From Wickerhamiella versatilis (taxonomy: Eukaryota): a DNA stretch of 64,000 bases. A model generated the notes under the pieces. That model searched no databases, was not told the DNA's origin, and saw only the letters and a program-made list of their open reading frames with translations. Positions 9,307 to 26,728 of the stretch are shown in pieces (position 1 is the first letter of the stretch; each line of letters starts with the position of its first letter). The stretch lies in contig JAQOWU010000003.1 of assembly GCA_030867685.1 (NCBI GenBank), forward strand, positions 868,001 to 932,000, given 5' to 3'. The translations under genes and the position numbers were made by a program.

Positions 9307-10197
9307 TTAAGACCCAAGATTCACCTTTACCGTGGAAAACTTGCGTAATGCATGCGAAAATACCTGATAAGATACCACACCCCCATTATCCGGCTGATGA
9401 AACAGCTCTGTGACACGAATGTGCCATGGTGGGTATCCTTGAAGATCCAACTCGCTACCAAAAGTAATCAGGAGATCTGGCTCCCCGCCAACACGGGCTT
9501 TAAGCTCCGCATCAACTGTTTTCAACGTAATATCCGAGGGGTTTAAAGCACCCTGTGCCGCAAGCCCAGCATATGTCTTCGCAAGCTCAACAATAGCTGG
9601 TTTTCCATCCTTCTCACTTATGATATCAATGCGAAGCATAGGATCTGAATCACCAACAACCGTGCGTCCTGCGTCAGTAGTCACAGTGAAACGTGGCAAC
9701 CGAATGTCGCCAAAATATTGAGCTAGACGTGAGGCCACTGCTTCTCGAATACGCTCTGCCCCGACTTCCGTCAAAACACCAGAGCGTTCATACAAAGTAA
9801 GTTGTGAAGAGCCGACACCAATACACCAGCTCGCAACCTCTCCACAGTCGAAAAGAAGTCCCTCAACACCTCCACCAGAATAATGTGGACCCCTTATTGT
9901 AAGGATCACTGCGATATGGCAGGGGATCTTATCGAGACGAGAAATATCTTTCCTAATTAGTTGGGGCTCGCAATGATGATAGCGCGTTGCCCTCGCGAGC
10001 GCATAGCATGATTGACGGCACGTTCGGCGAACGTACTTGTAGATTACCAGGATCAGAAAGAAAATTTGTAAAACAAACCATGCTGGCTTGTAACCCTCAT
10101 CTCTACGAGGAAGTAACTCGTAGGCCAGCATCGAAGTCGGTGAGGATTCAGAGTGTGTAAGCTGAGCTCTATGTGTGAAGTTAGTTACATGCACCAT
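9307..10197 (-). CDS. NUS1: Dehydrodolichyl diphosphate synthase subunit Nus1/NgBR
   Basis: LDKIPCHIAVIL, LYERSGVL, DGKPAIVELAK, EPDLLITFG...LQGYPPWHIRVTE, C-terminal VNLGS. The real start may be the second Met. Confidence 0.92.
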   Translation of the reverse strand: MVHVTNFTHRAQLTHSESSPTSMLAYELLPRRDEGYKPAWFVLQIFFLILVIYKYVRRTCRQSCYALARATRYHHCEPQLIRKDISRLDKIPCHIAVILTIRGPHYSGGGVEGLLFDCGEVASWCIGVGSSQLTLYERSGVLTEVGAERIREAVASRLAQYFGDIRLPRFTVTTDAGRTVVGDSDPMLRIDIISEKDGKPAIVELAKTYAGLAAQGALNPSDITLKTVDAELKARVGGEPDLLITFGSELDLQGYPPWHIRVTELFHQPDNGGVVSYQVFSHALRKFSTVKVNLGS

Positions 10198-10342: not shown

Positions 10343-12199
10343 TCAACCCAACGCGAGTGACGAACGCGGTGACCCCCCATCCTGAGGAGCTGCTCCCTTT
10401 CCCAGGTCAAAATTCAGGTGTAGTGGAGACGTCGGTCGAGACTGTGGGCGTAAACGGGGGAGACTGAGTGGCATCTGGTCACCAGGAGTCTCTGCACCCT
10501 TTGTAAATTCCCCAGTAACACTACCGGCGCTTTTGCTAACAGTGCGACCCTTGATGCTTTCCAAATGGGCAATTCTAAGCTCCAAGGCTCTGATTTCATG
10601 GTCTTTACGCTCATGCATTGTCCTCAATGCCTCTCGTAAAACTGATCTTTGCTCTTCCAGTGTTCTCACCCGCTCTCCTTGAGAACCACGGTCACTGAGC
10701 TCATCCAGTTGTTTACGCAAACGAGAATTCTCACGCTCTATCGCTTTTATATGTTCTGAGGAGCCGCGTTTCACACTTGACATCTGTGCCTGAACCTGGT
10801 TTTCCCTCAACCTTTCCTTAAGTTCACGGTCCCCTTTCTGCAAGTCAATAAGCTCGGATTGTTGCAGTTCGTATTTGCTTTTCAGGATTTCATATTGCTG
10901 GCTCCGCAGGTCTAGGAGCTGCGTGGCTTCAGAGTAGCGATACTCCAAGTCTGCATAACGACCGATATCGTATGCCGCGCGTGACTGGCCTTCAATTGCT
11001 GCTCGCTTGGCTCTCTCAAGCCCCAGGTTGCGTTCAGCGGTGGCTAGTGCAGATGCATGCTGAGCAAGCTCATTGTGTGGGTTGAGACCAAGCTCACGAC
11101 GAGCAGACTCTCCGAGCTCGATAGAAAGTATCAGTATTTCATGTCTGAGCTTTGCCAGCTCCTCGGGGTCGGGCCTCGACAAAGGACCCGATCCATCACC
11201 GGATGGTTCAGATGTCATATTATGATTAGGCACGTCAAAATCAAAACTATCATGAGAGCGAGCATTTTGCGGCTGTGGACTATAAGGCATTGGTAGAGGC
11301 GCTGGACTTTGTGGCCGAGAATCACTCCTCATGTTGGGCCACGGCGAGGATGGTCCACGAGGAGCTTGGGGATAGAGCTGCTGCTGGTATGATGTTCTTT
11401 GGGGGGGTCTTTGTGGGGAAGGCGGATAGTATCCTTGAGGCGGGTGTAACTGCGGAGTCGACCCGTTCCCATAAGGCATATTCATTGCTGGAGGGCCAAC
11501 TGCTGGAGGCGGCCTAACCGACATAGGCCGAGGCATCGGGTTTCCAGGTGCAGTGGGATACATTCTACCATCCGCGCCCTGGAAATACATTGGTCCATTT
11601 GGAGGCATTGGATTGCCAAAAGCAGGTGGCATCGACTGCATGGATTGCATGGACATGGTACGCGGTGGTCCAGATGTCATACTCATTGCACGCGGTGGTG
11701 CACTGTGTACACCCACTGAGGGCGGCATAGGGGGATAGACACCGCTTTCAGAGGACAGCAGTTGCCGTCGACTTTCCACCATTTTATGTCGGTATTTGTC
11801 CTGCGGCTTGGAAGCTCCTCGATTAGGGCCACTTCCAGGGGCCATGGTTGGTATTATAGGAGTAGTATCCTGGCTTATCATTCCACTCGTAAGACTCTGA
11901 GGGCGACCTCCATGCACAGGTGCGGGATACCTAGCTCTGTCGCGTAACCCACTGATATCATTATAACTTAGATCAGGTCCACCAAAATCCGTGTTGCTTG
12001 GGCCTTCATCCTCATCAGAATCGCCTCCACCAGGAAACCCCCCGCTATAATCACCTTTCCGTCGTAAACGGCTTAAAATATTTCGCGAGGAAGACTGCGA
12101 CGCGCGTCGCCTCGATGGCATTCCGAAATCTTCATCGTCAAAAGGAACCGATAATCCACTGTCTGCTCTTTGTTTCGACTGCCGCCTATTAGAGTACAT
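10343..12199 (-). CDS. Hypothetical protein with Pro/Ser/Met-rich N-half and coiled-coil C-half
   Basis: 618-aa ORF; repeated R(A/T/P)MS motifs; heptad-rich L/E/R region from about aa 345 to 550. Confidence 0.8.
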   Translation of the reverse strand: MYSNRRQSKQRADSGLSVPFDDEDFGMPSRRRASQSSSRNILSRLRRKGDYSGGFPGGGDSDEDEGPSNTDFGGPDLSYNDISGLRDRARYPAPVHGGRPQSLTSGMISQDTTPIIPTMAPGSGPNRGASKPQDKYRHKMVESRRQLLSSESGVYPPMPPSVGVHSAPPRAMSMTSGPPRTMSMQSMQSMPPAFGNPMPPNGPMYFQGADGRMYPTAPGNPMPRPMSVRPPPAVGPPAMNMPYGNGSTPQLHPPQGYYPPSPQRPPQRTSYQQQLYPQAPRGPSSPWPNMRSDSRPQSPAPLPMPYSPQPQNARSHDSFDFDVPNHNMTSEPSGDGSGPLSRPDPEELAKLRHEILILSIELGESARRELGLNPHNELAQHASALATAERNLGLERAKRAAIEGQSRAAYDIGRYADLEYRYSEATQLLDLRSQQYEILKSKYELQQSELIDLQKGDRELKERLRENQVQAQMSSVKRGSSEHIKAIERENSRLRKQLDELSDRGSQGERVRTLEEQRSVLREALRTMHERKDHEIRALELRIAHLESIKGRTVSKSAGSVTGEFTKGAETPGDQMPLSLPRLRPQSRPTSPLHLNFDLGKGAAPQDGGSPRSSLALG

Positions 12200-15173: not shown

Positions 15174-15779
15174 AGAAACTTACTTGTCCTAAGCACATCT
15201 TTGAGCTTATTATTATCTACCACACTCGTGAAAATCTTCATTTCTTAAGGCGTTGCCTCCAGGACTCAAGCCGTAGCAGTGTCTTTGAAGGTCGTCCATG
15301 AACAAAACTTATGACCAACAAAGATAGTTTCTTTTGTTGGAATAGCGCATATAGTTATCATCATAATCCATAGCCCGTCTTAATGTTGCCTCTCTACCAT
15401 TAGAGTCCTCCTAGTGCACCGGAACCCTTATCAAAGCCGGCAATTGCTGCTTCCGCGACTACTGAAGCACACTATTTGAAGTATTGTTCCTCCTAGAGAT
15501 CACTTCGACCTAATTTAAATCAGTAGCGACAAACACCAGAATGTAAGATTTTTTTCACTCTATTCATTTTAATAACTACACATATTACCACCTAGGGGTA
15601 ATGGTTCATATGACAACGCTCTTCCACATGCATGGGGCAAATAGTTTGCACCTTCTATAGCTAATATAATACGGATAAAAGCCAATTGCATGGTGAAAAT
15701 AGGGTAAGACGGACCTCCCTTATAACAACGTTTAAAATTCCAAGCAGAAAGGTGATTGTTGTTACCTAGTGCTTATAAG

Positions 15780-16352
15780 TTAGAAGTCGCCACCATCGAA
15801 GTCGCCGCCACCACCATCGTCTCCTCCATCATCACCATAGTAATTATTCTCAATCACATCATGGCCACCACCATCCATAGCCTCTCCCAACATCATGCCT
15901 CCTAGTAGGCCTGCACCCGTACCGAGAGCCGCACCGCCCCAACCGGGTCCACTTCCTCCAAATCGACTCCCGCGGCCAGCATATGGCTGCTGAACATACT
16001 GCGGCTGGGGAGCGTACTGCGGTTGAGGAGGGTACTGAGGCTGAGGAGGATACTGCGGTCCCCTGCTGTTCTGTCCCTGCATGTATGCCTGGTGCAACAT
16101 TTTTTCATGTCGAAGCTGCTCTAACTCAGCTCGTTCACTTTCTCTTGTACTATCTGCGCTATTGTAGCTCGGGGGTGGACCTGTCGGGGGGCCCGCCGGG
16201 GATGGGGCAGGATGTTCCCATTGCGATTTTCCACTGGAAAGATCAACATAATACCAAGTCTTATAGCGGTCATCGAACTTAGCGAGCCATCCATTGGGCA
16301 CCGCTGGAGCGCTCTGACCCGAGCTTGAGCTTGATTGCTGAACCTTACTCAT
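15780..16352 (-). CDS. WWM1: WW-domain protein Wwm1
   Basis: VPNGWLAKFDDRYKTWYYVDLSSGKSQWEHP, PPPSY, PQY repeats, GAGLLGGMML, C-terminal DFDGGDF. Confidence 0.9.
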   Translation of the reverse strand: MSKVQQSSSSSGQSAPAVPNGWLAKFDDRYKTWYYVDLSSGKSQWEHPAPSPAGPPTGPPPSYNSADSTRESERAELEQLRHEKMLHQAYMQGQNSRGPQYPPQPQYPPQPQYAPQPQYVQQPYAGRGSRFGGSGPGWGGAALGTGAGLLGGMMLGEAMDGGGHDVIENNYYGDDGGDDGGGGDFDGGDF

Positions 16353-16644
16353 AACTTTACAACTCCTTACGCCATCCTACAGCTTATGTTCTCCCTGGGG
16401 AGCTGGTGCCTGTCACCCTAACCCTGATCCTTATTTACCTTCAGAAAACGAACGCTTTTTGTTAAAAATATTTGGGCGCTCTTTACACAGGAAAGAGCTG
16501 GAGGATGTAAATATCAACCTAAGAACCTTTAATTATATGACCGCCCGATCGCACGCCAGCTTACTTACTTATTATATCAAGACTGCATCAAATCGGATCT
16601 GAGTTCAGGTGGCTTGTAGTACTCAAGTGGAACCGATCAATTGT

Positions 16645-18138
16645 ATGGTATGGCAGTCGTTAGTACACCAAGGTCCACCGTTCCCACCTCCTTATGTATC
16701 CCTTCCTCAAGGAGGAGGGGTGCTTTCTCAAGGCTTGGCATGCCAGCTACCCCCTGAGGCTGAAGAAGCCGCTCGACTCTGGGTCGGGAGCGGTATTCGG
16801 GACATCCCTGAAGCAGCCACTACATTTTCAAAACATTTTAATAATATCCAAGATTGTGATCACAGGTTTGAGGATCTGGACCTGTCTAGATTGCCTGCCC
16901 TGAAATACCATGAGGAACTAGTCGAGTGTGACTGCTGGGTTAATGGCATACGAGCAACATATGAATGTCCAAGTTTCCTTCCTGCTATAGATAGCGAAGG
17001 AAACTTTTATCCACGCGTTCGGCCTCAAGATGTTGAAATCAATGTGTCAGAGGGGGTTGTGCTTGCATTGAGCTCTTGGAAGCACGTCTGGTGTATCCCA
17101 CAGGAGGACTGGCTGGCTAGGTGGAGTGGAGGTGTGATTGAAGTACCTAAGTTTGGCCCTCAGCTTTCGTTTGATAAGGCACGGTCGCTCAAATCAATAA
17201 TGTCGCTGCTTCGTCGAGACTACCGTCTTGCCCTTGACAGCCACTTGTGGCAGGAGCGTCAGTGGGCAACCACTCTCTACTTTGTTGATGCACTTACGCT
17301 CCCATCAGCCCTACCAAGTCGGCCAGGTAAAAATGATGGTCTTCGTTGCAGTGAGGTACAGCTGGTAGAGCCTAATTTAATAAAGACCCGTCTGGGACAA
17401 TACTTTGTGCATCGAAGAGTATTTCTCAATCTTGCATTGTTCATACGTGACCTAAACTCGGACCAGCCGATTCTTATGAGTTACAGCAGTCTTAATATGC
17501 TACTAAAGCTGGAATACGGTGACGCGTGCACTCATCTTGCTATTGTTAGGTATAATGCCACAGCATTGTGCGTCTCGCGATTGGAAAAGTTGCAGTACAG
17601 TACGGACCTGCAGCTACGTCGCATATTTGCCATCATATGGAATATGCTACATGAACCAAGAGAACTTAGTACTGAGTCGGTTGACAAAATTGAGCACCTA
17701 CGTGCTGAAATTGTCAGGCGAAAACTTCAGATGTGGGACAAGCATAGATCACAATGCCGCCAAAGGCTACCGAGAGCTTTTTTCAAGGGGATAACGAGTC
17801 TCAATAAGGAACGTTATTTGTCTAAACTAGCAAAAGCCTCTGGTCGCAGTCGTAAAAGTCCGGCTGAAACGCGGCAAATGTGGTCGAATGAATTGGAAAA
17901 GGGTGAATGGAAACGACCAAAAGCATTTTTAAAGTTGTTGCAAGAAATTGAATTTATGGAGAGTGAAATCGCCAGCGAGCATATGCGAGCAGTCTGGGCT
18001 CCTAATAATGTTGATCCCCGAGTCATCGTGGCGTATGCAAAAAAGCAGGGTATTCAACCGGCTACGCTATTTGGCGGAATGCACCGAAAAAAAACGTTCG
18101 AGTGGGCTCTTGGTACCCCCGCGAAGTGGGACTGGTGA
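16645..18138 (+). CDS. Divergent DNA topoisomerase IB (Top1)-like protein, predicted catalytically inactive
   Basis: Colinear Top1 motifs: WQSLVHQGPPFPPPY, PEAEEAA, RVRPQDVEIN, WLARW, FDKARSLK...RRDY, ERQWATTLYFVD, VFLNLALF, RYNAT, NNVDPRVIVAYAKK...FEWAL...WDW. First in-frame ATG is at 16645; the track start at 16609 is GTG. Confidence 0.85.
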   Translation: MVWQSLVHQGPPFPPPYVSLPQGGGVLSQGLACQLPPEAEEAARLWVGSGIRDIPEAATTFSKHFNNIQDCDHRFEDLDLSRLPALKYHEELVECDCWVNGIRATYECPSFLPAIDSEGNFYPRVRPQDVEINVSEGVVLALSSWKHVWCIPQEDWLARWSGGVIEVPKFGPQLSFDKARSLKSIMSLLRRDYRLALDSHLWQERQWATTLYFVDALTLPSALPSRPGKNDGLRCSEVQLVEPNLIKTRLGQYFVHRRVFLNLALFIRDLNSDQPILMSYSSLNMLLKLEYGDACTHLAIVRYNATALCVSRLEKLQYSTDLQLRRIFAIIWNMLHEPRELSTESVDKIEHLRAEIVRRKLQMWDKHRSQCRQRLPRAFFKGITSLNKERYLSKLAKASGRSRKSPAETRQMWSNELEKGEWKRPKAFLKLLQEIEFMESEIASEHMRAVWAPNNVDPRVIVAYAKKQGIQPATLFGGMHRKKTFEWALGTPAKWDW

Positions 18139-18718
18139 TTGTAGCTCGTAGAAGCTATGAAAGTACTTTAGAATCTGACGCCAGTAAGATGCTTCCATTG
18201 TATATATAGATTCTTGCTTAGAGTACTCTCGCAGATCCTTGTGACAAGAACAGATGTATAATACATAGCAATTAAACTTCTTTAATTCTCATTAACAGAA
18301 CCCATCCAGGGTGGTAAAATGCTAACAGTATATACAGCGCTAGCTTGGCAGCCTTCTTAATACCTGAGACTGTTACAGATTGGCCGAAAACCGTAATTTG
18401 AAGATTACAACTATATTATTTTGTTACATAGCAACAAATACTTGTTTTAAAGGGTAGTTTCTTATTACTTTTCCACGTTCAAAAGCTCATACAACGATGC
18501 ATACCGAGCTTGGATCGGCTGAGCAGCTGCCATGCATACATACACAAAGCGGCAAACCTGGCGCACCACTGGCTAGCAAGAGAGGCGCCATAATTTGAGG
18601 TTAAAACAGCATAAATACACGAGATTGAGTCTAAATAAAAAATATACCTTCCAAAAATTTTAAATTTTACTTGATGAACTCGCCAAGTCAAATAGTCTAC
18701 GTTTGTTAGTAATCAGAT

Positions 18719-19096
18719 ATGGATCTTTTGGACCGGCCTCGTAATGAGCTAAATGAGGTTGACCTCACACGGCTTGAGGAATACGAGACTAGACATGGCC
18801 CATTGTCAGTACTAAGAAGAGCTATGAATGATGGTACGCCGGTACTCATCTCGTGCCGAAATAATCACAAGCTTTTGGGCCGCGTACGAGCGTTCGACCG
18901 CCATTCCAATATGGTGCTGGAGAACGTAAAAGAACTCTGGACAGAAACCCCACGAAACTCCAAAGGTAAAAAAGGAAAATCTGTTAATCGTGATAGATTT
19001 ATCTCTAAGATGTTCTTACGTGGTGACGGTGTTGTACTTGTGTTAAGAGCTGCCCCAAAAAAGGTAGAAACCTCGGAGGAGGCACCCACCGATTGA
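18719..19096 (+). CDS. SMD2: Sm D2 snRNP core protein
   Basis: [54 protein letters not shown]. Confidence 0.97.
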
Positions 19097-19231
19097 CATC
19101 TGAGGAATGTGATACTTTGTAATGATATTTAAGCTCGTCTCGTTATCAGACTGGTCGCCGAACAACGAATTAATGCAATATACATACATATGCATACATA
19201 GATGACATTCTATTTACATTGAGGCTTTCTT

Positions 19232-19624
19232 CTAATCCACATCAAGATCTAGCTCCTTTTCCAAATTATCCTTCGCCTCCGACTTCAGAAGCTTGCCGAG
19301 GGTAACCGAAGGGTCCCTATAGTAAATCCATTTACCGTCGTCAGAGAAATCAAAACGTTTAGGGCCGGACACTGGAGAAGACAGCCAGATTTGCTTGCTG
19401 GGGGGCTGCTTGTTCACAACATACGTACCAACAGGGGGGAGCTGGATTGTAAGTACGCCTTGCGACAAGTCCACATCAATGTCAGGATTGTCTTCAATGA
19501 GGCCCTCGTAACTACCTAAGATACGGTCGAGCGTTTCATCACTCAATTCGTGATACCTTTGGGTTGATATAAGTCGTCTAGCTCCCCATGCGGTTGATAA
19601 ACGTCGGGGCAAAAAGCGAAACAT
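19232..19624 (-). CDS. YFH1: Frataxin, mitochondrial
   Basis: Arg-rich presequence; GVLTIQLPPVGTYVVNKQPPSKQIWLSSPVSGPKRFD. Confidence 0.96.
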   Translation of the reverse strand: MFRFLPRRLSTAWGARRLISTQRYHELSDETLDRILGSYEGLIEDNPDIDVDLSQGVLTIQLPPVGTYVVNKQPPSKQIWLSSPVSGPKRFDFSDDGKWIYYRDPSVTLGKLLKSEAKDNLEKELDLDVD

Positions 19625-19985
19625 GGAACAATTAGCTGCTTACTTACATATGGCATGTCCCCCTAAACCTTGAAATTCACGGTCCAGAGGAAAGGTGATA
19701 GGTTATTCAAGTAACGAAAAACTCTATTTCACTTGATGAGCATGTTCTAGGTAGGCTTTATTTTGCATTTTATCAATGACATGAATTTCCGACATGAAGT
19801 AAGTAGAGTAATTGAGACCTTAAACAACAATTTTCCAGTTCATGGAAATGCTATTGGTTAAAAACTCTGTATTATTTAACTTTGTCGACGGTTTACGATA
19901 GCTGTCTGTGGGGGGGCTCCAAAACAGCTCGGGTAATCTGAGTCATCACTATTTATACTCCGCTGCGCGGCGCACGCTACATCTA

Positions 19986-22019
19986 ATGCCTTCCTCCGAG
20001 GCTGTCGGAGAAGGTAGCTGTCCACTAGCACGCATCAAGACCCCTAGTTATTTACAGAGATACACCTATGAAGGCGTAGGAGACGGTCAGAAGTATGTTT
20101 TCGACGAGGATTCTATCAGCGCTACACAGCGCCACCTCGACGACATCGAGTTGCAAATCTCTAAGAGAGGGATAACTCAAACAGAGTTGACTGGACCTCC
20201 ACCTAAGCGCCTTGCCACTGATAATGGCCCCACTGCCCTTGCAGAGCATGCACTCGCTGTTGCCGCTGAGCAACAAGCAATTTCTGTTCCGTCTTCTGAT
20301 GAACATTTAGATTTGAGTTTACTTAGTCCAACAGCGAGTCCACGTCCTGAAACAGTTGAACCACGCGCTCATGAAAAGGACCTTGTGGTTACTTCCCAAT
20401 CAACTCTCCAAAAGATGGCTATGGTGAGCCGCTCATTTCGTGAACTTCCGAGTGGGCTACATCGTTTTCAGCTCTTCGATCTATTCAAAGCATGCGACCG
20501 ATCAACACTCAGTGCAATGTTCCAGGAGCTTGAACCGGCTTTGCGCTGTGATATTCTGTCGCGCCTACCAGCCGAGATTGCAGGAATTGTGTTGAGTCAC
20601 CTCGATTACAAGGATCTGTGCGCCTCAGCACAGGTATGTAAAAGCTGGAGCCATTTATTGAGGACTAATGACCAAGTTTGGCGGAACCTACTTGAGGCAG
20701 ATGGATACCAGATAACCCCAAGCGATGTTTCATTACTTGAGGGTAACTCAGACAAATACAGAGGAAACAAAACCTCAGCGGAAACCCAGAATGGTGTGCC
20801 AGGTTCCTCCGATAATCATAATGAAAAAAGCTATAAGGCTCTTTACAGCCGACGAATGGTACGAAAGAATAATTGGTTCAATCCTCGGGCGCAGCCTCGC
20901 CGCATTCAGATACCTTGCCGTGACCAAGAGGTTATTACTTGCCTCGAATTTGATGAGGATAGAATAATTGCTGGAAGTGATGGAAATCAGCAGATTAGTG
21001 TGTACGATACCCGATCTGGTGCATTATTGCACAGTTTCACAGACCACGAGGGTGGTGTATGGGCTTTGAAATGTGTTGGGAAAAACACTTTGGTAAGTGG
21101 ATCTACGGACCATACTGTCAGAGTTTGGAATGTGAACAAGAATAAATGTACACATGTCTTTAGGGGGCATACCGCCACAGTGCGATGCCTTGATGTTATA
21201 ATGCCAGTTCCCATAACCGACTCACTTGGCCAGACGCATCTTGCCCCTGAGCGGCCCATCATAGTCACAGGTTCCCGTGATGCTACGCTACGCATGTGGT
21301 ATTTGCCACAGGAGGACGATCCTGAGTGGTTCAGTGCTGATAATTATGTACATTCTGAAACGGATCCTTATTACATTCGTACCCTCACTGGCCACACTAA
21401 TCCGGTTCGTGCCGTCAGCGGTTACGGGAATACTATTGTGTCGGGTAGTTATGACAAGACGGTACGTGTTTGGGACCTTGACACTGGAAAGTGCCGCTGG
21501 GAATTGTTAGGGCATACGGAGAGAGTTTATGCTGCTGTTATCGACCCTGAGAAAGATCGATGTATCAGTGCATCAATGGATTGGCATGTGAATATCTGGG
21601 ATTTAAAAAATGGGTCCCTCCTGTATTCACTGGCAGGTCATACCTCTCTTGTCGGTCTTCTTGGGTTGTGCTCCTCCACTCTCGTATCTGCAGCTGCGGA
21701 TAAGACTCTGAGAGTATGGAATCCTGAGAACGGCCAACTCCTGCACAAGCTTGTTGGCCATGATAGTGCTATTACCTGTTTCCAGCATGATCGCCACCGC
21801 GTTGTATCAGGTAGTGAGCGACATCTCAAACTCTGGGATATACGAACGGGTAAATTCGTTCGCGACTTACTTACTGGTTTAGACCACATATGGCAAGTGG
21901 GCTTCAATGATAGGTGGTGCGTAGCGGCGGTAAGTCGTGGGCAGACAAGTTATATAGAGGTCTTGGATTTCGACAGCGATACTTCTAGGCCTCCACAGTT
22001 AGACGGCCCATTGCATTGA
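19986..22019 (+). CDS. CDC4: F-box/WD40 protein Cdc4
   Basis: F-box DILSRLPAEIAGIVLSHL; WD40 repeats HEGGVWALK, GHTATVRCL, VTGSRDATL. First ATG at 19986 (track start is GTG). Confidence 0.93.
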   Translation: MPSSEAVGEGSCPLARIKTPSYLQRYTYEGVGDGQKYVFDEDSISATQRHLDDIELQISKRGITQTELTGPPPKRLATDNGPTALAEHALAVAAEQQAISVPSSDEHLDLSLLSPTASPRPETVEPRAHEKDLVVTSQSTLQKMAMVSRSFRELPSGLHRFQLFDLFKACDRSTLSAMFQELEPALRCDILSRLPAEIAGIVLSHLDYKDLCASAQVCKSWSHLLRTNDQVWRNLLEADGYQITPSDVSLLEGNSDKYRGNKTSAETQNGVPGSSDNHNEKSYKALYSRRMVRKNNWFNPRAQPRRIQIPCRDQEVITCLEFDEDRIIAGSDGNQQISVYDTRSGALLHSFTDHEGGVWALKCVGKNTLVSGSTDHTVRVWNVNKNKCTHVFRGHTATVRCLDVIMPVPITDSLGQTHLAPERPIIVTGSRDATLRMWYLPQEDDPEWFSADNYVHSETDPYYIRTLTGHTNPVRAVSGYGNTIVSGSYDKTVRVWDLDTGKCRWELLGHTERVYAAVIDPEKDRCISASMDWHVNIWDLKNGSLLYSLAGHTSLVGLLGLCSSTLVSAAADKTLRVWNPENGQLLHKLVGHDSAITCFQHDRHRVVSGSERHLKLWDIRTGKFVRDLLTGLDHIWQVGFNDRWCVAAVSRGQTSYIEVLDFDSDTSRPPQLDGPLH

Positions 22020-22839: not shown

Positions 22840-24651
22840 TCAATTACGGTATTTAATAGGTTCAGTTTGAAAATCCAGCCATTTGCGCTCGGCTTCATCT
22901 AGATCAGGATATAGTACTTCCCGGCATTTGGCATGATAATTATCAATAAACTCAATTTCACTAGGACTGAGAAGCGCAGTATTCAAAAGATTTCTGTCAA
23001 AGGGCACTAATGTCAATGGCTCGAACTTACAGAATTTGCGGTCTAGGAAATTATATGGCGTCTCTGCCCACTCACATAAGATATCATTTTCCACACGCAC
23101 ACCAAATAAACCATCCTCATAGTAACCTGGCTCAATTGTGACATAATTTCCTGGCCTTAAACGTGACTCCGGTCCATAACTCATACCAATGCCTATTGGC
23201 AATTCATGGATTGTGTTGTAGCTTCCGACACCATGACCAGATCCATGACTATAGTCTAGTCCAACTTGCCACAGAAATTGTCTTGCAAGAATATCGAACT
23301 TTCCTCCGCTAGTCTCTTCCGGAAAGGTCGCCATCGTTACTGCAAGGTTTCCACGTAAAACTGCAGTGTACGCAAGTCGCTCCATTTCAGTGGGGGTTCC
23401 GAAATGAACGGTTCTCGTGATGTCAGTAGATCCCTGTAGAAAATGAGAGCCACTGTCTAATAAATATACCTCCTTGTCGGTAATAACATATTTATCATTA
23501 TTCGGATCCGGCGCATAATGCGGAGAACTGGCATTGCCTCCGACACACGATATACTTTCGTACGAGAGTCCTCTGAAATCCGGTAATTGCTGTCGAATCT
23601 CGAGCAACTTCATGGACCCCTGGTATTCCGTGATAGGAATACCTCTTTTAACCTGATCATTGAGCCACGTGAAGTACTTAATATAAGACAAACTACATTT
23701 GCGAGAGGCTTCACGCTCCCCTGCGCATTCAACGGGATTCTTGATGTCGCGCATGGATCGAAGTGGAGACGCCTCTGTCTTGACAGGGCACGCCTCCTCA
23801 GCGAGTGCCCATGACATACCAGCCGGAACCCACCAGCGTGAAGACTCCTTCGAATTTTTCAAATCCGACCAAATTTGATCGTAAGGTCGAAAATCTATGC
23901 CATCATAGAGAGATTTGACTCCCTGTAATTTCTTGGTATCGCCGTATAATCGGACAACATCTCGGGTTACGACCGTAAACGCCTTAAACAGTGGATTATA
24001 CGGTACGTCGCCGCCACGTAAATTGAAAAACCAGGCTATGTCTGGTAGGCTGTATAAGAGCAACGCATCAACATCACCAAGCACATTTCTAACTCTTTCA
24101 ATTTTTGATTTCCATGTCTCACCCGTAAATTTCAGTGGTAATTGCCAAATAGGCTCATCAGGCAACTGAGGGCGGCTGGAACCCCATAATTCGACAATCA
24201 GGTCGGGAACAGGAACCACGTCAATGTCTTTGGCCCTCAAAGACTCAGCCACGTCAAAAGGGGTTGTTTTAGGGTCTATTCCGACTCTTCCTTTTTGTGC
24301 TGCGAGAGCATCTTCCCAGCCAACAATACCAGGATTTCCTAGCTTGCGCACCGTCCAGTCGGAACTTAATTGTCGTTTAGCCTGTAGATGGTAACGTGAG
24401 TCGGTCGCAAGCTCTGCAAAGTCCAAACCAACAATTGCTGTACCTGCGGATCCAGTGAACCCCGTGAAGTAGGCTATTCTCCTGTCAGCCTCCGCTACAT
24501 ACTCACTGGAATGCTCATCACCACTGAGAATCACAAATACACTAATCCTTTCGCGACGCATGAGACCACGCAACTTATCTAGCTTGGTGCTTTTTCGAAA
24601 GCTCATTGGGGGCCAGTGTTTGATGTTTGACCCACTTGATCCTCGTATCAT
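22840..24651 (-). CDS. Xaa-Pro aminopeptidase P (M24B, Fra1-like), tandem copy A
   Basis: TGFTGSAG, TDSRY, LLDSG...TDITRT, HGSGHGVG...HE, EPGYY, VRVEN; all metal ligands present. Confidence 0.93.
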   Translation of the reverse strand: MIRGSSGSNIKHWPPMSFRKSTKLDKLRGLMRRERISVFVILSGDEHSSEYVAEADRRIAYFTGFTGSAGTAIVGLDFAELATDSRYHLQAKRQLSSDWTVRKLGNPGIVGWEDALAAQKGRVGIDPKTTPFDVAESLRAKDIDVVPVPDLIVELWGSSRPQLPDEPIWQLPLKFTGETWKSKIERVRNVLGDVDALLLYSLPDIAWFFNLRGGDVPYNPLFKAFTVVTRDVVRLYGDTKKLQGVKSLYDGIDFRPYDQIWSDLKNSKESSRWWVPAGMSWALAEEACPVKTEASPLRSMRDIKNPVECAGEREASRKCSLSYIKYFTWLNDQVKRGIPITEYQGSMKLLEIRQQLPDFRGLSYESISCVGGNASSPHYAPDPNNDKYVITDKEVYLLDSGSHFLQGSTDITRTVHFGTPTEMERLAYTAVLRGNLAVTMATFPEETSGGKFDILARQFLWQVGLDYSHGSGHGVGSYNTIHELPIGIGMSYGPESRLRPGNYVTIEPGYYEDGLFGVRVENDILCEWAETPYNFLDRKFCKFEPLTLVPFDRNLLNTALLSPSEIEFIDNYHAKCREVLYPDLDEAERKWLDFQTEPIKYRN

Positions 24652-24949: not shown

Positions 24950-26728
24950 TTACAAGGGTTGTGTGTTTTCGAGAACAAAAGACCTTTCCTTTTCATTCAA
25001 ATAATGGCACAGTGCATCTCGAACACGATCTTGATAATTATTGATCCAAGCAATTTCCTCATCTTGCAGTAGCGTCCGGTCAATTAAACGCCGGCAAAGT
25101 GGAACTAGCGTAATCGTTTCAAATTCAAGGAATTCCTTTGTATCGACATTGGTTTTTGGTGATGCACGGGCAACTAATAAGGACTCAATTCGGACACCAA
25201 AGGCACCATCCTTATAATAGCCAGGTTCATTCGATACCACGTTGCCAGCCTGCAAGGGATACATGTTGGCATTTGCACGTGTAGGGGATATAGCCATTGG
25301 TCCTTCATGAACATTAAGAAAAGAGCCAACCCCATGGCCAGTCCCGTGGTTGTAATCAAGGCCCTCCCGCCATAAAAACTGTCGTGCTAGCGGGTCTAGC
25401 TGGATTCCAGAAGTACCTACTGGAAATACAGCCGTAGCAAGCGCTATATGTCCCTTGAGCACTAAAGTATATGCTTTTTTTTCCTCCGATGTAGGGATTC
25501 CAAAATGGACTGTTCTCGTCGTATCCGTAGTACCATGTGTGAAGTGACACCCTGTATCCAAAAGATATACGTCCTTGTCTGTAATGACACTAGATTTATT
25601 CGGCAAAGGCTTGTAATGAATAATTGAAGCGTTAGGCCCCACACTGGAAATTGTCGCAAACGACTCTCCACGAAATTCTGGCAATTTGGTACGAATATCA
25701 TGAAGTTTGCAGGATCCTTCATACTCTGTGATAGATCCTCCATTTTTGATGAGCTCTTGGAGCCAGCAAAAATAGCGCACAATACTAATCCCGCACTTCA
25801 GTTGAGCTTGACGTGCGCCTGAAAGTTCTGTACCATTTTTTACAGCTTTCAATGATGCAACTATCGAAGGCTGATCAATGAAATTGGGGCCCACAGACTG
25901 GGTAATAGCCCAAGATGCAGAATCTCTGGAGAAGCAAATTTTGGTGCCAGTTCTAGACAGCACCTCTAAATCGCCATATACAGCTTCATACGGCCTCACA
26001 TTAACACAAGCAAGCCGCTCAGAGAGTACTCTTGGGGATGTGAAGAGGGTAACTTTCTCGGTCTCAATAATTAAAAAAGCCTTGAACACTGGGTTATATT
26101 CTATGTCACCCACAACGCGGATATTGAGCAACCAACAAATTTCATCGAGTGCAGTAACTATATAAGCACCAGCACCCACTCTTGCCATCCATTGGCGGAC
26201 ATCAGTTAGTTTTGATGAGTATGTTCTTCCTGTATATTGTTCATGAAGAACTTCAATAGCATTAGTTGGCTCCGGTGGCCGGTCGTCGCCCCATATAAGA
26301 TCTACGAGGTTTGGTTTTACTGCACGAAGTGTAGCACTTGAGCCACGCAACTCTGACATGATGTCGCTAGCACAATTATATGTTATCAGAGATGGATCAA
26401 CACCTATGTCTCTGCCTGTTTGGCGTGCGTGGCTGGCGACTGCTTTCCACCAAGGTGAAACTTTAGGCAATCCCTCTCTTCGTAGTTTCCAAGCTTTAAT
26501 TAATTGTTGCTGTGCCTGGATGAAATACCGCCCATCGGTTGCTAGCTCTGCCCATTCCATTGCAATGATGGCGGTCCCAGCCGAACCCGTAAAACCAGTC
26601 AGGTATTGACGTCGCTCATCGCATGGAGCCACATATTCACTATTGTGGGCATCCTGTGAGAGCACAAGGAAATAACCAAGATTGCGATGGGCCATCTCTT
26701 TTCGAAGAGACGCCAGGCGTTCAAGCAT
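24950..26728 (-). CDS. FRA1: Xaa-Pro aminopeptidase P (M24B, Fra1-like), tandem copy B
   Basis: DAHNSEYVA, TGFTGSAG, TDGRYF, LLDTG...GTTDTTRT, HGTGHGVGSFLNVHEGP, SNEPGYY; closer to the family consensus than copy A. Confidence 0.9.
   Translation of the reverse strand: MLERLASLRKEMAHRNLGYFLVLSQDAHNSEYVAPCDERRQYLTGFTGSAGTAIIAMEWAELATDGRYFIQAQQQLIKAWKLRREGLPKVSPWWKAVASHARQTGRDIGVDPSLITYNCASDIMSELRGSSATLRAVKPNLVDLIWGDDRPPEPTNAIEVLHEQYTGRTYSSKLTDVRQWMARVGAGAYIVTALDEICWLLNIRVVGDIEYNPVFKAFLIIETEKVTLFTSPRVLSERLACVNVRPYEAVYGDLEVLSRTGTKICFSRDSASWAITQSVGPNFIDQPSIVASLKAVKNGTELSGARQAQLKCGISIVRYFCWLQELIKNGGSITEYEGSCKLHDIRTKLPEFRGESFATISSVGPNASIIHYKPLPNKSSVITDKDVYLLDTGCHFTHGTTDTTRTVHFGIPTSEEKKAYTLVLKGHIALATAVFPVGTSGIQLDPLARQFLWREGLDYNHGTGHGVGSFLNVHEGPMAISPTRANANMYPLQAGNVVSNEPGYYKDGAFGVRIESLLVARASPKTNVDTKEFLEFETITLVPLCRRLIDRTLLQDEEIAWINNYQDRVRDALCHYLNEKERSFVLENTQPL

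What the first reader, a model, noticed from the sequence alone, without database searches (positions are those of the whole stretch)
16645..18138. Intact but catalytically disabled topoisomerase IB (Top1) paralog: candidate Top1 pseudoenzyme
Seen: an uninterrupted 497-codon ORF following Top1 from the start of the conserved core (WQSLVHQGPPFPPPY, cf. W..L.HNGV.FPPPY) through a long linker to the C-terminal domain (DPR...FEWAL...WDW). Known: type IB catalysis uses Arg488, Lys532, Arg590, His632 and Tyr723 (human numbering). By my manual alignment, LRAG becomes LPSA (CCA 17302), LGKD becomes LGQY (CAA 17398), KVFRTYNA becomes LAIVRYNA (GTT 17545), and NYIDPR becomes NNVDPR (Tyr to Asn, AAT 18007). 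Only the His (MLHEPR) may survive. The FRGRG loop and the charged N-terminal domain are also absent. Inference: this much divergence without a stop or frameshift points to selection on a non-catalytic role, such as a DNA clamp, scaffold or Top1 competitor. I know of no described dead Top1 paralog in yeasts.
Basis: partly seen in the sequence, partly recalled or inferred. Interest (0 to 1): 0.85.

Follow-up and report, generated by a model that had tools for sequence, protein, structure and literature searches.

The report
Expressed, conserved, catalytically dead Top1 homolog
A little-known budding yeast carries an intact, transcribed and evolutionarily conserved gene that keeps the whole shape of DNA topoisomerase I but has lost the tyrosine that cuts DNA, so it probably serves some non-enzymatic role.

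Summary
The protein is a very divergent eukaryotic type IB topoisomerase. It matches Pfam Topoisom_I_N and Topoisom_I, aligns to a Top1 profile by hhalign (E 7.6e-36), and its AF2 model (pLDDT 83) best matches human Top1.

The nucleophile Tyr is Asn455, and His in the only ortholog. The catalytic Lys is gone. The two Arg and the His are missing from their canonical columns, with like residues 1-6 positions away.

It is not a decaying pseudogene:
- RNA-seq reads cover exactly this gene at about the depth of the neighbouring Sm-like LSM gene, with no splice joints.
- A sister-species ortholog is 70% identical with no internal gap, while the syntenic Cdc4 neighbour is 73% identical.
- Strain differences are mostly synonymous.

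Only two species carry it, after a stem branch of about 5 substitutions per site.

Not tested: whether a canonical TOP1 exists in the same genome (no genome held), any activity, and the function. My verdict is a new, lineage-restricted Top1-derived pseudoenzyme.

The parts
16587..16644 (+). 5' untranslated leader. Read ends cluster at 16587 and 16592. It holds no ATG before 16645 and has an in-frame TGA at 16600.
   Evidence: (table 6)
16645..18138 (+). Complete intronless coding sequence of the Top1-like protein (497 codons plus TGA).
   Evidence: (no joints inside)
16645..17154 (+). Cap region (residues 1-170; core subdomains I/II). It starts at the conserved W..L.H.GP.FPPPY motif. The nose-cone helices and the FRGRG lip are deleted. 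It is 64% identical to the ortholog.
17155..17664 (+). Former catalytic core (residues 171-340; subdomain III). It is 75% identical to the ortholog, with two 30-residue windows at 97% (196-225 and 286-315).
17302..17322 (+). P220 to R226. P220 fills the first catalytic Arg column in MAFFT. hhalign instead treats PSALPS as a 6-residue insertion and pairs R226 with that Arg. The loop 222-230 has pLDDT below 50.
17398..17400 (+). Q252 in the catalytic Lys column (a gap in hhalign). It is also Q in the ortholog.
17545..17550 (+). V301-R302. V301 fills the second catalytic Arg column and an Arg follows one residue later. Both are identical in the ortholog.
17650..17655 (+). H336-E337. E337 fills the catalytic His column and a His lies one residue earlier. 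Both are identical in the ortholog.
17665..17994 (+). Helical linker (residues 341-450). pLDDT is 56-81 and identity to the ortholog is 66%.
17995..18135 (+). C-terminal domain (residues 451-497), 79% identical to the ortholog. N454-N455 (18004-18009) replace the canonical Asn-Tyr, so the nucleophile Tyr is Asn here and His in the ortholog.
18139..18327 (+). 3' untranslated region. RNA depth falls to about 0 by 18320. The transcript-shaped contig of run X20 ends at 18327.
   Evidence: tables 2, 8

Best explanation
The gene encodes a Top1-derived pseudoenzyme. It is a full-length eukaryotic type IB topoisomerase fold (cap, core, linker, C-terminal domain) that has lost the nucleophilic tyrosine and the catalytic lysine. 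Its other active-site residues have moved out of register. It also lacks the charged N-terminal domain, the nose-cone helices and the FRGRG lip.

Shown here:
- Homology and fold.
- Loss of the catalytic residues in both known orthologs.
- Transcription as an unspliced mRNA.
- Purifying selection since the two species split, after a burst of change on the stem branch.

Inferred:
- It cannot make the covalent 3'-phosphotyrosyl intermediate, so it cannot relax DNA.
- It arose from the fungal nuclear TOP1 by duplication, and an active TOP1 still exists elsewhere in the genome.
- It works by non-covalent binding through the surface around the former active-site cleft, which is the best conserved part of the protein. 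The ligand is most likely nucleic acid or chromatin. A Top1 partner protein is the main alternative.
For: Homology and fold:
- Pfam hits to all three Top1 domains.
- hhalign probability 99.9, E 7.6e-36.
- AF2 mean pLDDT 83.3, with 255 of 497 residues at 90 or more.
- All 18 of 18 Foldseek PDB matches with E at or below 0.001 are type IB topoisomerases. The best is human Top1 1k4t, E 6.1e-22, TMq 0.61.

Catalytic loss:
- The Tyr column holds N455, and H in P0003. 46 of 50 canonical rows have Y.
- The Lys column holds Q252 in both. 49 of 50 have K.
- The second Arg column holds V301. 50 of 50 have R.
- The His column holds E337. 50 of 50 have H.

Expression:
- RNA raw reads of X23 and X24 give about 25-54 reads per orientation across 16628-18037.
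- Depth is 0-3 in the flanking intergenic bins.
- The LSM gene next door is at about 47-62 per orientation.
- There are no joints inside the gene.
- An X20 contig spans 16578-18327.

Selection:
- P0003 is 70% identical over all 497 residues with no internal gap.
- Cdc4, apparently on the same sister-species contig (both list longest contig 117955), is 73% identical with 6 gap columns.
- Of the 13 ORF differences displayed against X19/X20, 10 are synonymous and 3 are not.
- None of the 11 listed indels falls in the ORF.
- The lost residues are the same in both orthologs at most columns.

Burst then constraint: the stem branch is 5.02 substitutions per site and the tips are 0.36 and 0.19.

Native gene: GC3 and codon use lie within the range of the neighbouring genes.

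Fungal affinity: of the ten best canonical hits P0006-P0015, 7 are named fungal Top1s and 3 are unnamed or were not looked up.

Former cleft conserved: windows 196-225 and 286-315 are 97% identical, against 70% overall.

Net charge is positive, pI 8.95.
Against: - No canonical TOP1 could be looked for in this genome, so 'paralog' and 'an active copy exists' are assumptions.
- Only 9 of 24 basic columns conserved in canonical Top1s stay basic, and only 54 of 117 strongly conserved columns are kept. The lip and nose-cone are gone. Canonical clamping of duplex DNA may therefore be lost.
- The tree does not resolve where the pair attaches, so a fungal origin rests on hit ranking alone.
- Residues of the right kind lie near three catalytic columns: R226, R302 and H336. 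I had no model coordinates to see where they point.
- The RNA libraries behave as unstranded. The transcript's strand is therefore inferred from its boundaries and the ORF.
- Within-species constraint is moderate, not strong. A strain variant (P0101) differs at 10 of 497 residues. If P0101 is the X20 allele, pN/pS is about 0.2-0.3, not the 0.09 of the displayed subset (my arithmetic).
- No protein-level evidence exists.
Confidence: 0.65

Rival explanations
1. Same dead protein but a different mode of action. It no longer binds DNA and acts as a protein-binding scaffold or decoy, for instance by competing for partners of the active Top1.
For: 15 of 24 conserved basic columns are lost, and both the clamp lip and the nose-cone are deleted. 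The fold and long linker helices are retained. Conservation is spread over all four regions at 64-79%.
Against: The most conserved windows lie around the old DNA-facing cleft. Net charge is still positive. No partner is known or suggested by the neighbouring genes. Top1 works as a monomer (recalled).
Confidence: 0.25
2. It is not a paralog. It is the lineage's only surviving Top1 gene, so these yeasts have lost type IB relaxation and rely on other topoisomerases.
For: No second Top1 was found in the window and no genome could be searched. TOP1 deletion is tolerated in S. cerevisiae (passage seen in PMC11432948). The very long stem branch would fit release from the ancestral function.
Against: Top1 is described as found in all eukaryotes (abstract of PMC4824112 in the listing). 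Divergence after duplication is the usual route to a dead enzyme. The locus sits between WW-domain and CDC4 genes, which is not where TOP1 lies in S. cerevisiae (recalled, weak).
Confidence: 0.12
3. It is still an enzyme with a rebuilt active site. The displaced R226, R302 and H336, with another nucleophile (for example the conserved Y253 or Y303), would support DNA or RNA cleavage or another phosphoryl transfer.
For: Like residues lie 1-6 positions from three catalytic columns and are identical in both orthologs. The old cleft is the most conserved part. The Asn before the Tyr column is kept.
Against: The nucleophile position differs between the two orthologs (N versus H), so it is not under selection for chemistry. 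No Lys substitute is conserved: K247 and R249 are E and P in the ortholog. The R226 loop is modelled with pLDDT below 50. Single losses of these residues in poxvirus Top1 cut the rate by orders of magnitude (recalled).
Confidence: 0.07
4. It is a decaying pseudogene or a spurious ORF.
For: Extreme divergence from all canonical Top1s (21-28% identity) and loss of catalytic residues.
Against: The 497 codons are open in four strain variants and in a second species, with no internal gap. Divergence is like that of Cdc4. Displayed differences are mostly synonymous. Transcription is robust and sharply bounded.
Confidence: 0.03

Closest known systems
Nuclear DNA topoisomerase I of eukaryotes (human TOP1, PDB 1k4t/1a36; fungal Top1 such as Tortispora caseinolytica P0011)
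   Same: Same three Pfam domains and the same overall fold: cap, core subdomain III, two-helix linker and C-terminal domain. The start of the core and the C-terminal ...DPR...F.WA...W.[FW] end are recognisable.
   Different: - Only 21-28% identity.
- No charged N-terminal domain, nose-cone helices or FRGRG lip.
- The nucleophile Tyr is replaced by Asn or His, the catalytic Lys is lost, and the two Arg and the His are out of register.
- 15 of 24 conserved basic columns are lost.
Human Top1 active-site mutants solved with DNA (PDB hits 1r49 'K532R/Y723F', 1lpq non-covalent complex)
   Same: They show that a Top1 fold without the nucleophile can still hold duplex DNA non-covalently. This is the model for the proposed mode of action. 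Both are among the top Foldseek matches.
   Different: Those are engineered single or double mutants with every DNA contact intact. Here the loss is natural, multiple and accompanied by deletions of DNA-contacting elements.
Vertebrate mitochondrial TOP1MT
   Same: It is the only Top1 paralog pair I found described. Ten papers were returned by the paralog and duplication phrases, and all ten titles concern TOP1MT or mitochondrial DNA topology or maintenance. Like this protein it lacks the long charged N-terminal domain (recalled).
   Different: TOP1MT is an active enzyme with the full catalytic set. The abstract of PMC2770673 (listing) states that yeast has a single topoisomerase I gene for both compartments.
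Short eukaryote-like TopIB of Thaumarchaeota (Nitrososphaerota)
   Same: Similar length and no N-terminal extension. These were the nearest clusters by language-model features, at 0.90.
   Different: They are functional enzymes (title and abstract of PMC4824112, listing). Feature similarity is not kinship, and the window gene has native yeast composition.
Non-catalytic descendants of topoisomerase/recombinase folds (ALOG domain from tyrosine-recombinase DNA-binding domains; TOPOVIBL)
   Same: They are precedents for members of DNA-cleaving superfamilies being kept as non-catalytic DNA-binding or partner proteins (abstracts of PMC3537659 and PMC9665070, listing).
   Different: They come from different families and keep only fragments or regulatory subunits. 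Here the whole type IB enzyme body is retained.

Membership tests
Eukaryotic type IB DNA topoisomerase (Top1) | Sequence homology to Topoisom_I_N, Topoisom_I and Topo_C_assoc | tested here: met
   Scores are 45.8 bits (cut-off 25), 26.5 bits (cut-off 23.7), and 22.9 bits (cut-off 25.1, just below). hhalign gives E 7.6e-36.
Eukaryotic type IB DNA topoisomerase (Top1) | Top1 three-dimensional fold (cap, core, linker, C-terminal domain) | tested here: met
   AF2 pLDDT is 83.3. All 18 of 18 significant PDB matches are type IB topoisomerases, with human Top1 at E 6.1e-22.
Eukaryotic type IB DNA topoisomerase (Top1) | Nucleophilic tyrosine in the C-terminal ..N-Y-x-D-P-R motif | tested here: not met
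   N455 here and H in P0003. Y is present in 46 of 50 canonical rows. phmmer, MAFFT and hhalign give the same result.
Eukaryotic type IB DNA topoisomerase (Top1) | Catalytic lysine (LGK motif) | tested here: not met
   Q252 in both orthologs (MAFFT) or a gap (hhalign). K is present in 49 of 50 canonical rows.
Eukaryotic type IB DNA topoisomerase (Top1) | Two catalytic arginines and the histidine at their canonical positions | tested here: inconclusive
   The canonical columns hold P220 (or R226 after a 6-residue insertion), V301 and E337. R302 and H336 are adjacent. I had no coordinates to check the geometry.
Eukaryotic type IB DNA topoisomerase (Top1) | Relaxation of supercoiled DNA through a covalent 3'-phosphotyrosyl intermediate | not testable with these tools
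   This needs purified protein and a plasmid relaxation or suicide-substrate assay.
Pseudoenzyme (inactive homolog kept by selection) | Homolog of an active enzyme family with essential catalytic residues lost | tested here: met
Pseudoenzyme (inactive homolog kept by selection) | Maintained by purifying selection | tested here: met
   A 70% gapless ortholog against 73% for syntenic Cdc4. Displayed strain differences are 10 synonymous to 3 non-synonymous, and no ORF indels were listed. Codon-level dN/dS between the species could not be computed because no DNA is available for P0003.
Pseudoenzyme (inactive homolog kept by selection) | Expressed | tested here: met
   Met at the RNA level. Raw reads of X23 and X24 cover 16590-18200 with sharp edges. 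Protein was not tested.
Pseudoenzyme (inactive homolog kept by selection) | Active paralog present in the same genome (needed for the word 'paralog') | not testable with these tools
   No genome is held. The window has no other Top1.
Decaying pseudogene | Disabling stops or frameshifts, neutral evolution, no transcript | tested here: not met
   The frame is open in 4 strain variants and a second species. It is transcribed. Differences are biased to synonymous changes.
TOP1MT-type organellar Top1 paralog | Intact catalytic set | tested here: not met
TOP1MT-type organellar Top1 paralog | N-terminal mitochondrial targeting sequence | not tested
   No targeting predictor was run. The protein begins directly with the conserved core motif.

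The most novel reading that the evidence does not exclude
This is the first natural 'dead clamp' of the type IB topoisomerase family. It would be a domesticated Top1 body that still recognises DNA or chromatin at Top1-type sites (supercoiled or crossing duplexes, or sites of Top1 action) without cutting. It would thereby tune or shield Top1 activity, for example by limiting Top1 cleavage complexes or buffering against Top1 poisons in its fermentation and sediment habitats.
Probability: 0.2. Interest if true: 0.75.

Novelty: new variant of a known kind. Interest (0 to 1): 0.55.

Why it matters
Type IB topoisomerases are textbook, near-universal eukaryotic enzymes and major drug targets. Across six full-text searches I found only active Top1 paralogs (TOP1 and TOP1MT) described, and no conserved inactive one.

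A natural, expressed, selectively maintained Top1 body without the nucleophile would allow three things:
- It is a ready-made separation-of-function variant. It can show what the Top1 scaffold does apart from cutting, such as DNA-topology recognition or partner binding.
- It is a clear case of burst-then-constraint evolution after loss of catalysis.
- It is a possible modulator of Top1 cleavage-complex toxicity.

Its reach is limited because only two related species carry it and nothing is known about its function.

Tried and rejected
- Own-genome search for a canonical TOP1: no genome is held.
- Two metagenome scans for DNA of the ortholog, one with P0003 and one with the P0001+P0003 alignment. 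Neither confirmed a relative, so no codon-level dN/dS between the species was possible.
- The run index listed no RNA holder. Only the raw-read runs laid gave expression evidence.
- Earlier findings of this scan, searched by place, sequence and words: nothing.
- ESM Atlas returned only ordinary TopIB clusters, the top two archaeal. I read this as a length and feature effect, not evidence of origin.
- Phylogeny to place the origin used 52 rows, 666 columns and the quick method. The pair sits on a 5.02 stem at the drawing root with no resolved sister, so duplication from fungal TOP1 is not shown by the tree.
- The pairwise phmmer alignment to human Top1 placed the second Arg and the His on other residues (LRRIF, DKHRS). 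I rejected that placement. MAFFT and hhalign agree on the ...VRYNAT... and ...MLHEPR... placement, and the model's helices 280-291, 297-314 and 321-335 fit it.
- A 509-residue database version (P0002) starts at a GTG 36 bases upstream. I rejected it as a bacterial-style gene call, because the transcript's first ATG is 16645.
- Biosynthetic-cluster self-resistance copy and mobile-element cargo: the neighbours are housekeeping genes and composition is native.
- I ran no further search on a canonical Top1 query. The output cannot be tied to this organism.
- I ran no complex prediction, because no specific partner is claimed.
Full report
**1. What is in the sequence**

Bases 16645-18138 on the + strand are a single open frame of 497 codons ending in TGA.
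- An in-frame TGA lies upstream at 16600.
- 16645 is the only ATG between the mapped 5' ends of the RNA (16587/16592) and the ORF.
- A 509-residue database version (P0002) begins at a GTG 36 bases upstream. It looks like a bacterial-style gene call.

**2. It is a Top1 homolog with the Top1 fold**

- Pfam finds Topoisom_I_N (45.8 bits, cut-off 25) and Topoisom_I (26.5, cut-off 23.7). Topo_C_assoc scores 22.9, just under its 25.1 cut-off.
- phmmer against PDB sequences gives human Top1 at E 4.9e-14.
- A profile of the protein and its ortholog aligns to a 24-sequence Top1 profile with probability 99.9, E 7.6e-36, 447 columns and 26% identity.
- An AlphaFold2 model built on a 52-row alignment has mean pLDDT 83.3 and pTM 0.63. 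255 of 497 residues are at 90 or more. The only segments below 50 are 222-230 and 420-423.
- All 18 of 18 Foldseek PDB matches with E at or below 0.001 are type IB topoisomerases. The best is human Top1 1k4t (E 6.1e-22, TMq 0.61). The list also holds the Leishmania enzyme, the yeast N-terminal fragment 1ois and a bacterial TopIB.

**3. The active site**

I mapped it through motifs. In the 52-row MAFFT alignment, 50 rows are canonical enzymes.

| Catalytic residue | Canonical rows with it | Window protein | Ortholog P0003 |
|---|---|---|---|
| Tyr723 | 46 of 50 | N455 | H |
| Lys532 | 49 of 50 | Q252 | Q |
| Arg488 | 49 of 50 | P220 | P |
| Arg590 | 50 of 50 | V301 | V |
| His632 | 50 of 50 | E337 | E |

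- The Asn before the Tyr is kept (N454).
- hhalign agrees on Tyr to N455, Arg590 to V301 with an Arg at +1 (R302), and His632 to E337 with a His at -1 (H336). It aligns the canonical DFLGK segment, which holds Lys532, with a gap in the query.
- hhalign differs for Arg488. It treats PSALPS as a six-residue insertion and pairs R226 with that Arg. The motif is RPG here and RAG in the ortholog, which echoes the canonical RAG. That loop is the low-confidence part of the model.
- The pairwise phmmer alignment put the second Arg and the His elsewhere. I set it aside because two multiple and profile methods agree and the model's helices fit them.

The loss of the nucleophile and of the Lys is therefore robust. 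The other three residues are missing from their canonical columns, with like residues 1-6 positions away. I had no coordinates to judge their geometry.

Beyond the active site:
- The FRGRG lip, the nose-cone helices and any N-terminal charged domain are absent.
- Only 9 of 24 columns that are basic in at least 80% of canonical rows stay basic.
- 54 of 117 strongly conserved columns keep their residue.

**4. It is transcribed**

I laid two RNA raw-read runs of the same species label (X23 and X24, one sample, about a quarter of each run read) on 15500-19700.
- They give about 25-54 reads per orientation in every bin from 16628 to 18037.
- Depth is 0.6-2.8 in the upstream intergenic bin and 0-0.45 at 18320-18601.
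- The neighbouring LSM gene is at about 47-62 per orientation, and the WW-domain gene at about 190-315.
- No joint was reported inside the gene, so it is intronless and has no upstream exon.
- Read ends cluster at 16587 and 16592.
- A 1757-base contig of run X20 spans 16578-18327 with 28 differences and no gap. Its neighbours break at the gene boundaries, as transcripts would.
- The two orientations are equal, so the libraries behave as unstranded. The strand is inferred.

**5. It is conserved**

Two protein searches found one close relative, P0003. One used a word index over 5.8 billion sequences. The other was an exhaustive phmmer over 1.84 billion representatives.
- P0003 has 503 residues and is 70% identical.
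- The phmmer search gave 96 hits at E up to 0.001, 6 at up to 1e-10 and 1 at up to 1e-30.
- The pairwise alignment has no internal gap.
- The neighbouring Cdc4-type F-box/WD40 protein has a best non-self relative, P0104, at 73% identity with 6 gap columns. It lists the same longest contig (117955) as P0003. The two genes are therefore most simply syntenic in a sister species, and the Top1-like protein has diverged about as much as Cdc4.
- At that distance an unconstrained sequence would not stay open and gapless. As a rough figure of my own, a random 497-codon frame is open with probability about 4e-11.

Within the species:
- Cluster variants differ at 1, 2 and 10 residues and all keep the frame.
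- Of the 13 ORF differences displayed against X19/X20, 10 are synonymous and 3 are not. That gives pN/pS of about 0.09 on 335 synonymous and 1156 non-synonymous sites.
- That table showed only 40 of 126 rows. If the 10-difference variant P0101 is the X20 allele, my estimate rises to 0.2-0.3.
- None of the 11 listed indels lies in the ORF.
- Conservation by region is 64% (cap), 75% (core), 66% (linker) and 79% (C-terminal domain). Two windows reach 97% (196-225 and 286-315). They flank the former active site.

**6. Origin and distribution**

- Named relatives of the Cdc4 neighbour are budding yeasts at only 42-62% identity: Sugiyamaella, Blastobotrys, Geotrichum reessii, Starmerella, Trichomonascus, Yarrowia and Lipomyces. 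The host is therefore an isolated Saccharomycotina lineage.
- DNA of the gene occurs in food-fermentation, food and sediment metagenome runs from 11 studies.
- Among the ten best canonical hits (P0006-P0015), 7 are named fungal Top1s: Armillaria, Lentinula, Mycena, Serendipita, Tortispora, Smittium and a chytrid. The other 3 are unnamed or were not looked up.
- A maximum-likelihood tree (52 rows, 666 columns, quick search) joins the two orthologs with full support. They sit on a stem of 5.02 substitutions per site with tips of 0.36 and 0.19, and their attachment is not resolved.
- This pattern is a burst of change followed by constraint. The tree does not prove a fungal duplication.
- GC, GC3 and codon use match the neighbouring genes. 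The neighbours are housekeeping genes: aldehyde dehydrogenase, Pkr1, a WW protein, an LSM/Sm protein, frataxin, Cdc4, two M24 peptidases and an importin.
- No other Top1 lies in the window. The rest of the genome could not be searched.

**7. Interpretation**

Shown: an intact, transcribed, selectively maintained Top1-fold protein lacking the nucleophile and the general-acid Lys in both species that have it.

Inferred:
- It cannot form the covalent intermediate and so cannot relax DNA.
- It is a duplicate of the fungal nuclear TOP1.
- It acts by non-covalent binding at the conserved former cleft.

I favour nucleic acid or chromatin as the ligand. The whole clamp architecture is kept, the charge is positive (pI 8.95), and engineered Tyr-less human Top1 still holds DNA (PDB titles). 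The loss of most conserved basic positions and of the lip makes a protein-binding role a serious rival. Less likely are a sole-ortholog scenario, a rebuilt active site and decay.

**8. Known or new**

Six full-text searches returned no inactive Top1 paralog (and term searches within the fungal topoisomerase review PMC11432948).
- The paralog phrases returned ten papers, all on TOP1MT or mitochondrial DNA topology or maintenance.
- One abstract states that yeast has a single Top1 gene (PMC2770673).
- I read only listings, abstracts and one passage. Supplements were not available.

I rate the gene a new variant of a known kind. It is a Top1-family member by descent and fold, fails the family's catalytic criteria, and meets the tested criteria of a pseudoenzyme.

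Noticed in passing
P0005 (database protein, not in the window): The second-best hit (E 1.7e-24, 7 matched stretches) is a 1441-residue 'hypothetical protein' of the firefly Abscondita terminalis. It is made of repeated Top1-like units. In two of them the ..N-Y-x-DPR motif reads ..H-C-L-DPR and ..D-C-L-DPR, so Cys replaces the catalytic Tyr, and the LGK and LRAG motifs are degenerate. It may be an independent set of dead Top1 copies or a fused gene model.
   Followed up: partly
window 22840-24651 (-) and 24950-26728 (-): Two adjacent genes on the same strand have the same four-domain aminopeptidase P architecture (Creatinase_N, Creatinase_N_2, Peptidase_M24, Peptidase_M24_C). This is a tandem duplication.
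   Followed up: no
window 15780-16352 (-): The WW-domain gene has a proline/glutamine-rich repeat tail. Nine RNA reads show a 'goes back 54' joint (16049 to 15996), and run X20 lacks 15 bases at 15783. This suggests repeat-length variation between strains.
   Followed up: no
window 15780-22019: The WW-domain gene and the CDC4-type gene are divergently oriented, with three genes between them: Top1-like, LSM/Sm and frataxin. In S. cerevisiae WWM1 and CDC4 are direct divergent neighbours (recalled, not tested). The three genes may therefore sit inside an old gene pair.
   Followed up: no
window 9307-10197 (-) and 10343-12199 (-): ORFs of 296 and 618 residues have no Pfam family at E up to 1e-5. 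The second has the highest GC of the ORFs examined, 0.522.
   Followed up: no
window 6143-9037 (+): This 964-residue ORF has the least typical codon use in the window (r 0.47, against 0.60-0.84 for the others). A second 342-residue ORF overlaps it on the same strand at 6975-8003. It may be a repetitive or low-complexity gene.
   Followed up: no
window 16353-16586 and 18328-18718: The intergenic flanks of the gene carry several small indels between strains (16414, 16461, 16522, 18386, 18410, 18573, 18586, 18655), while the ORF carries none of those listed.
   Followed up: partly
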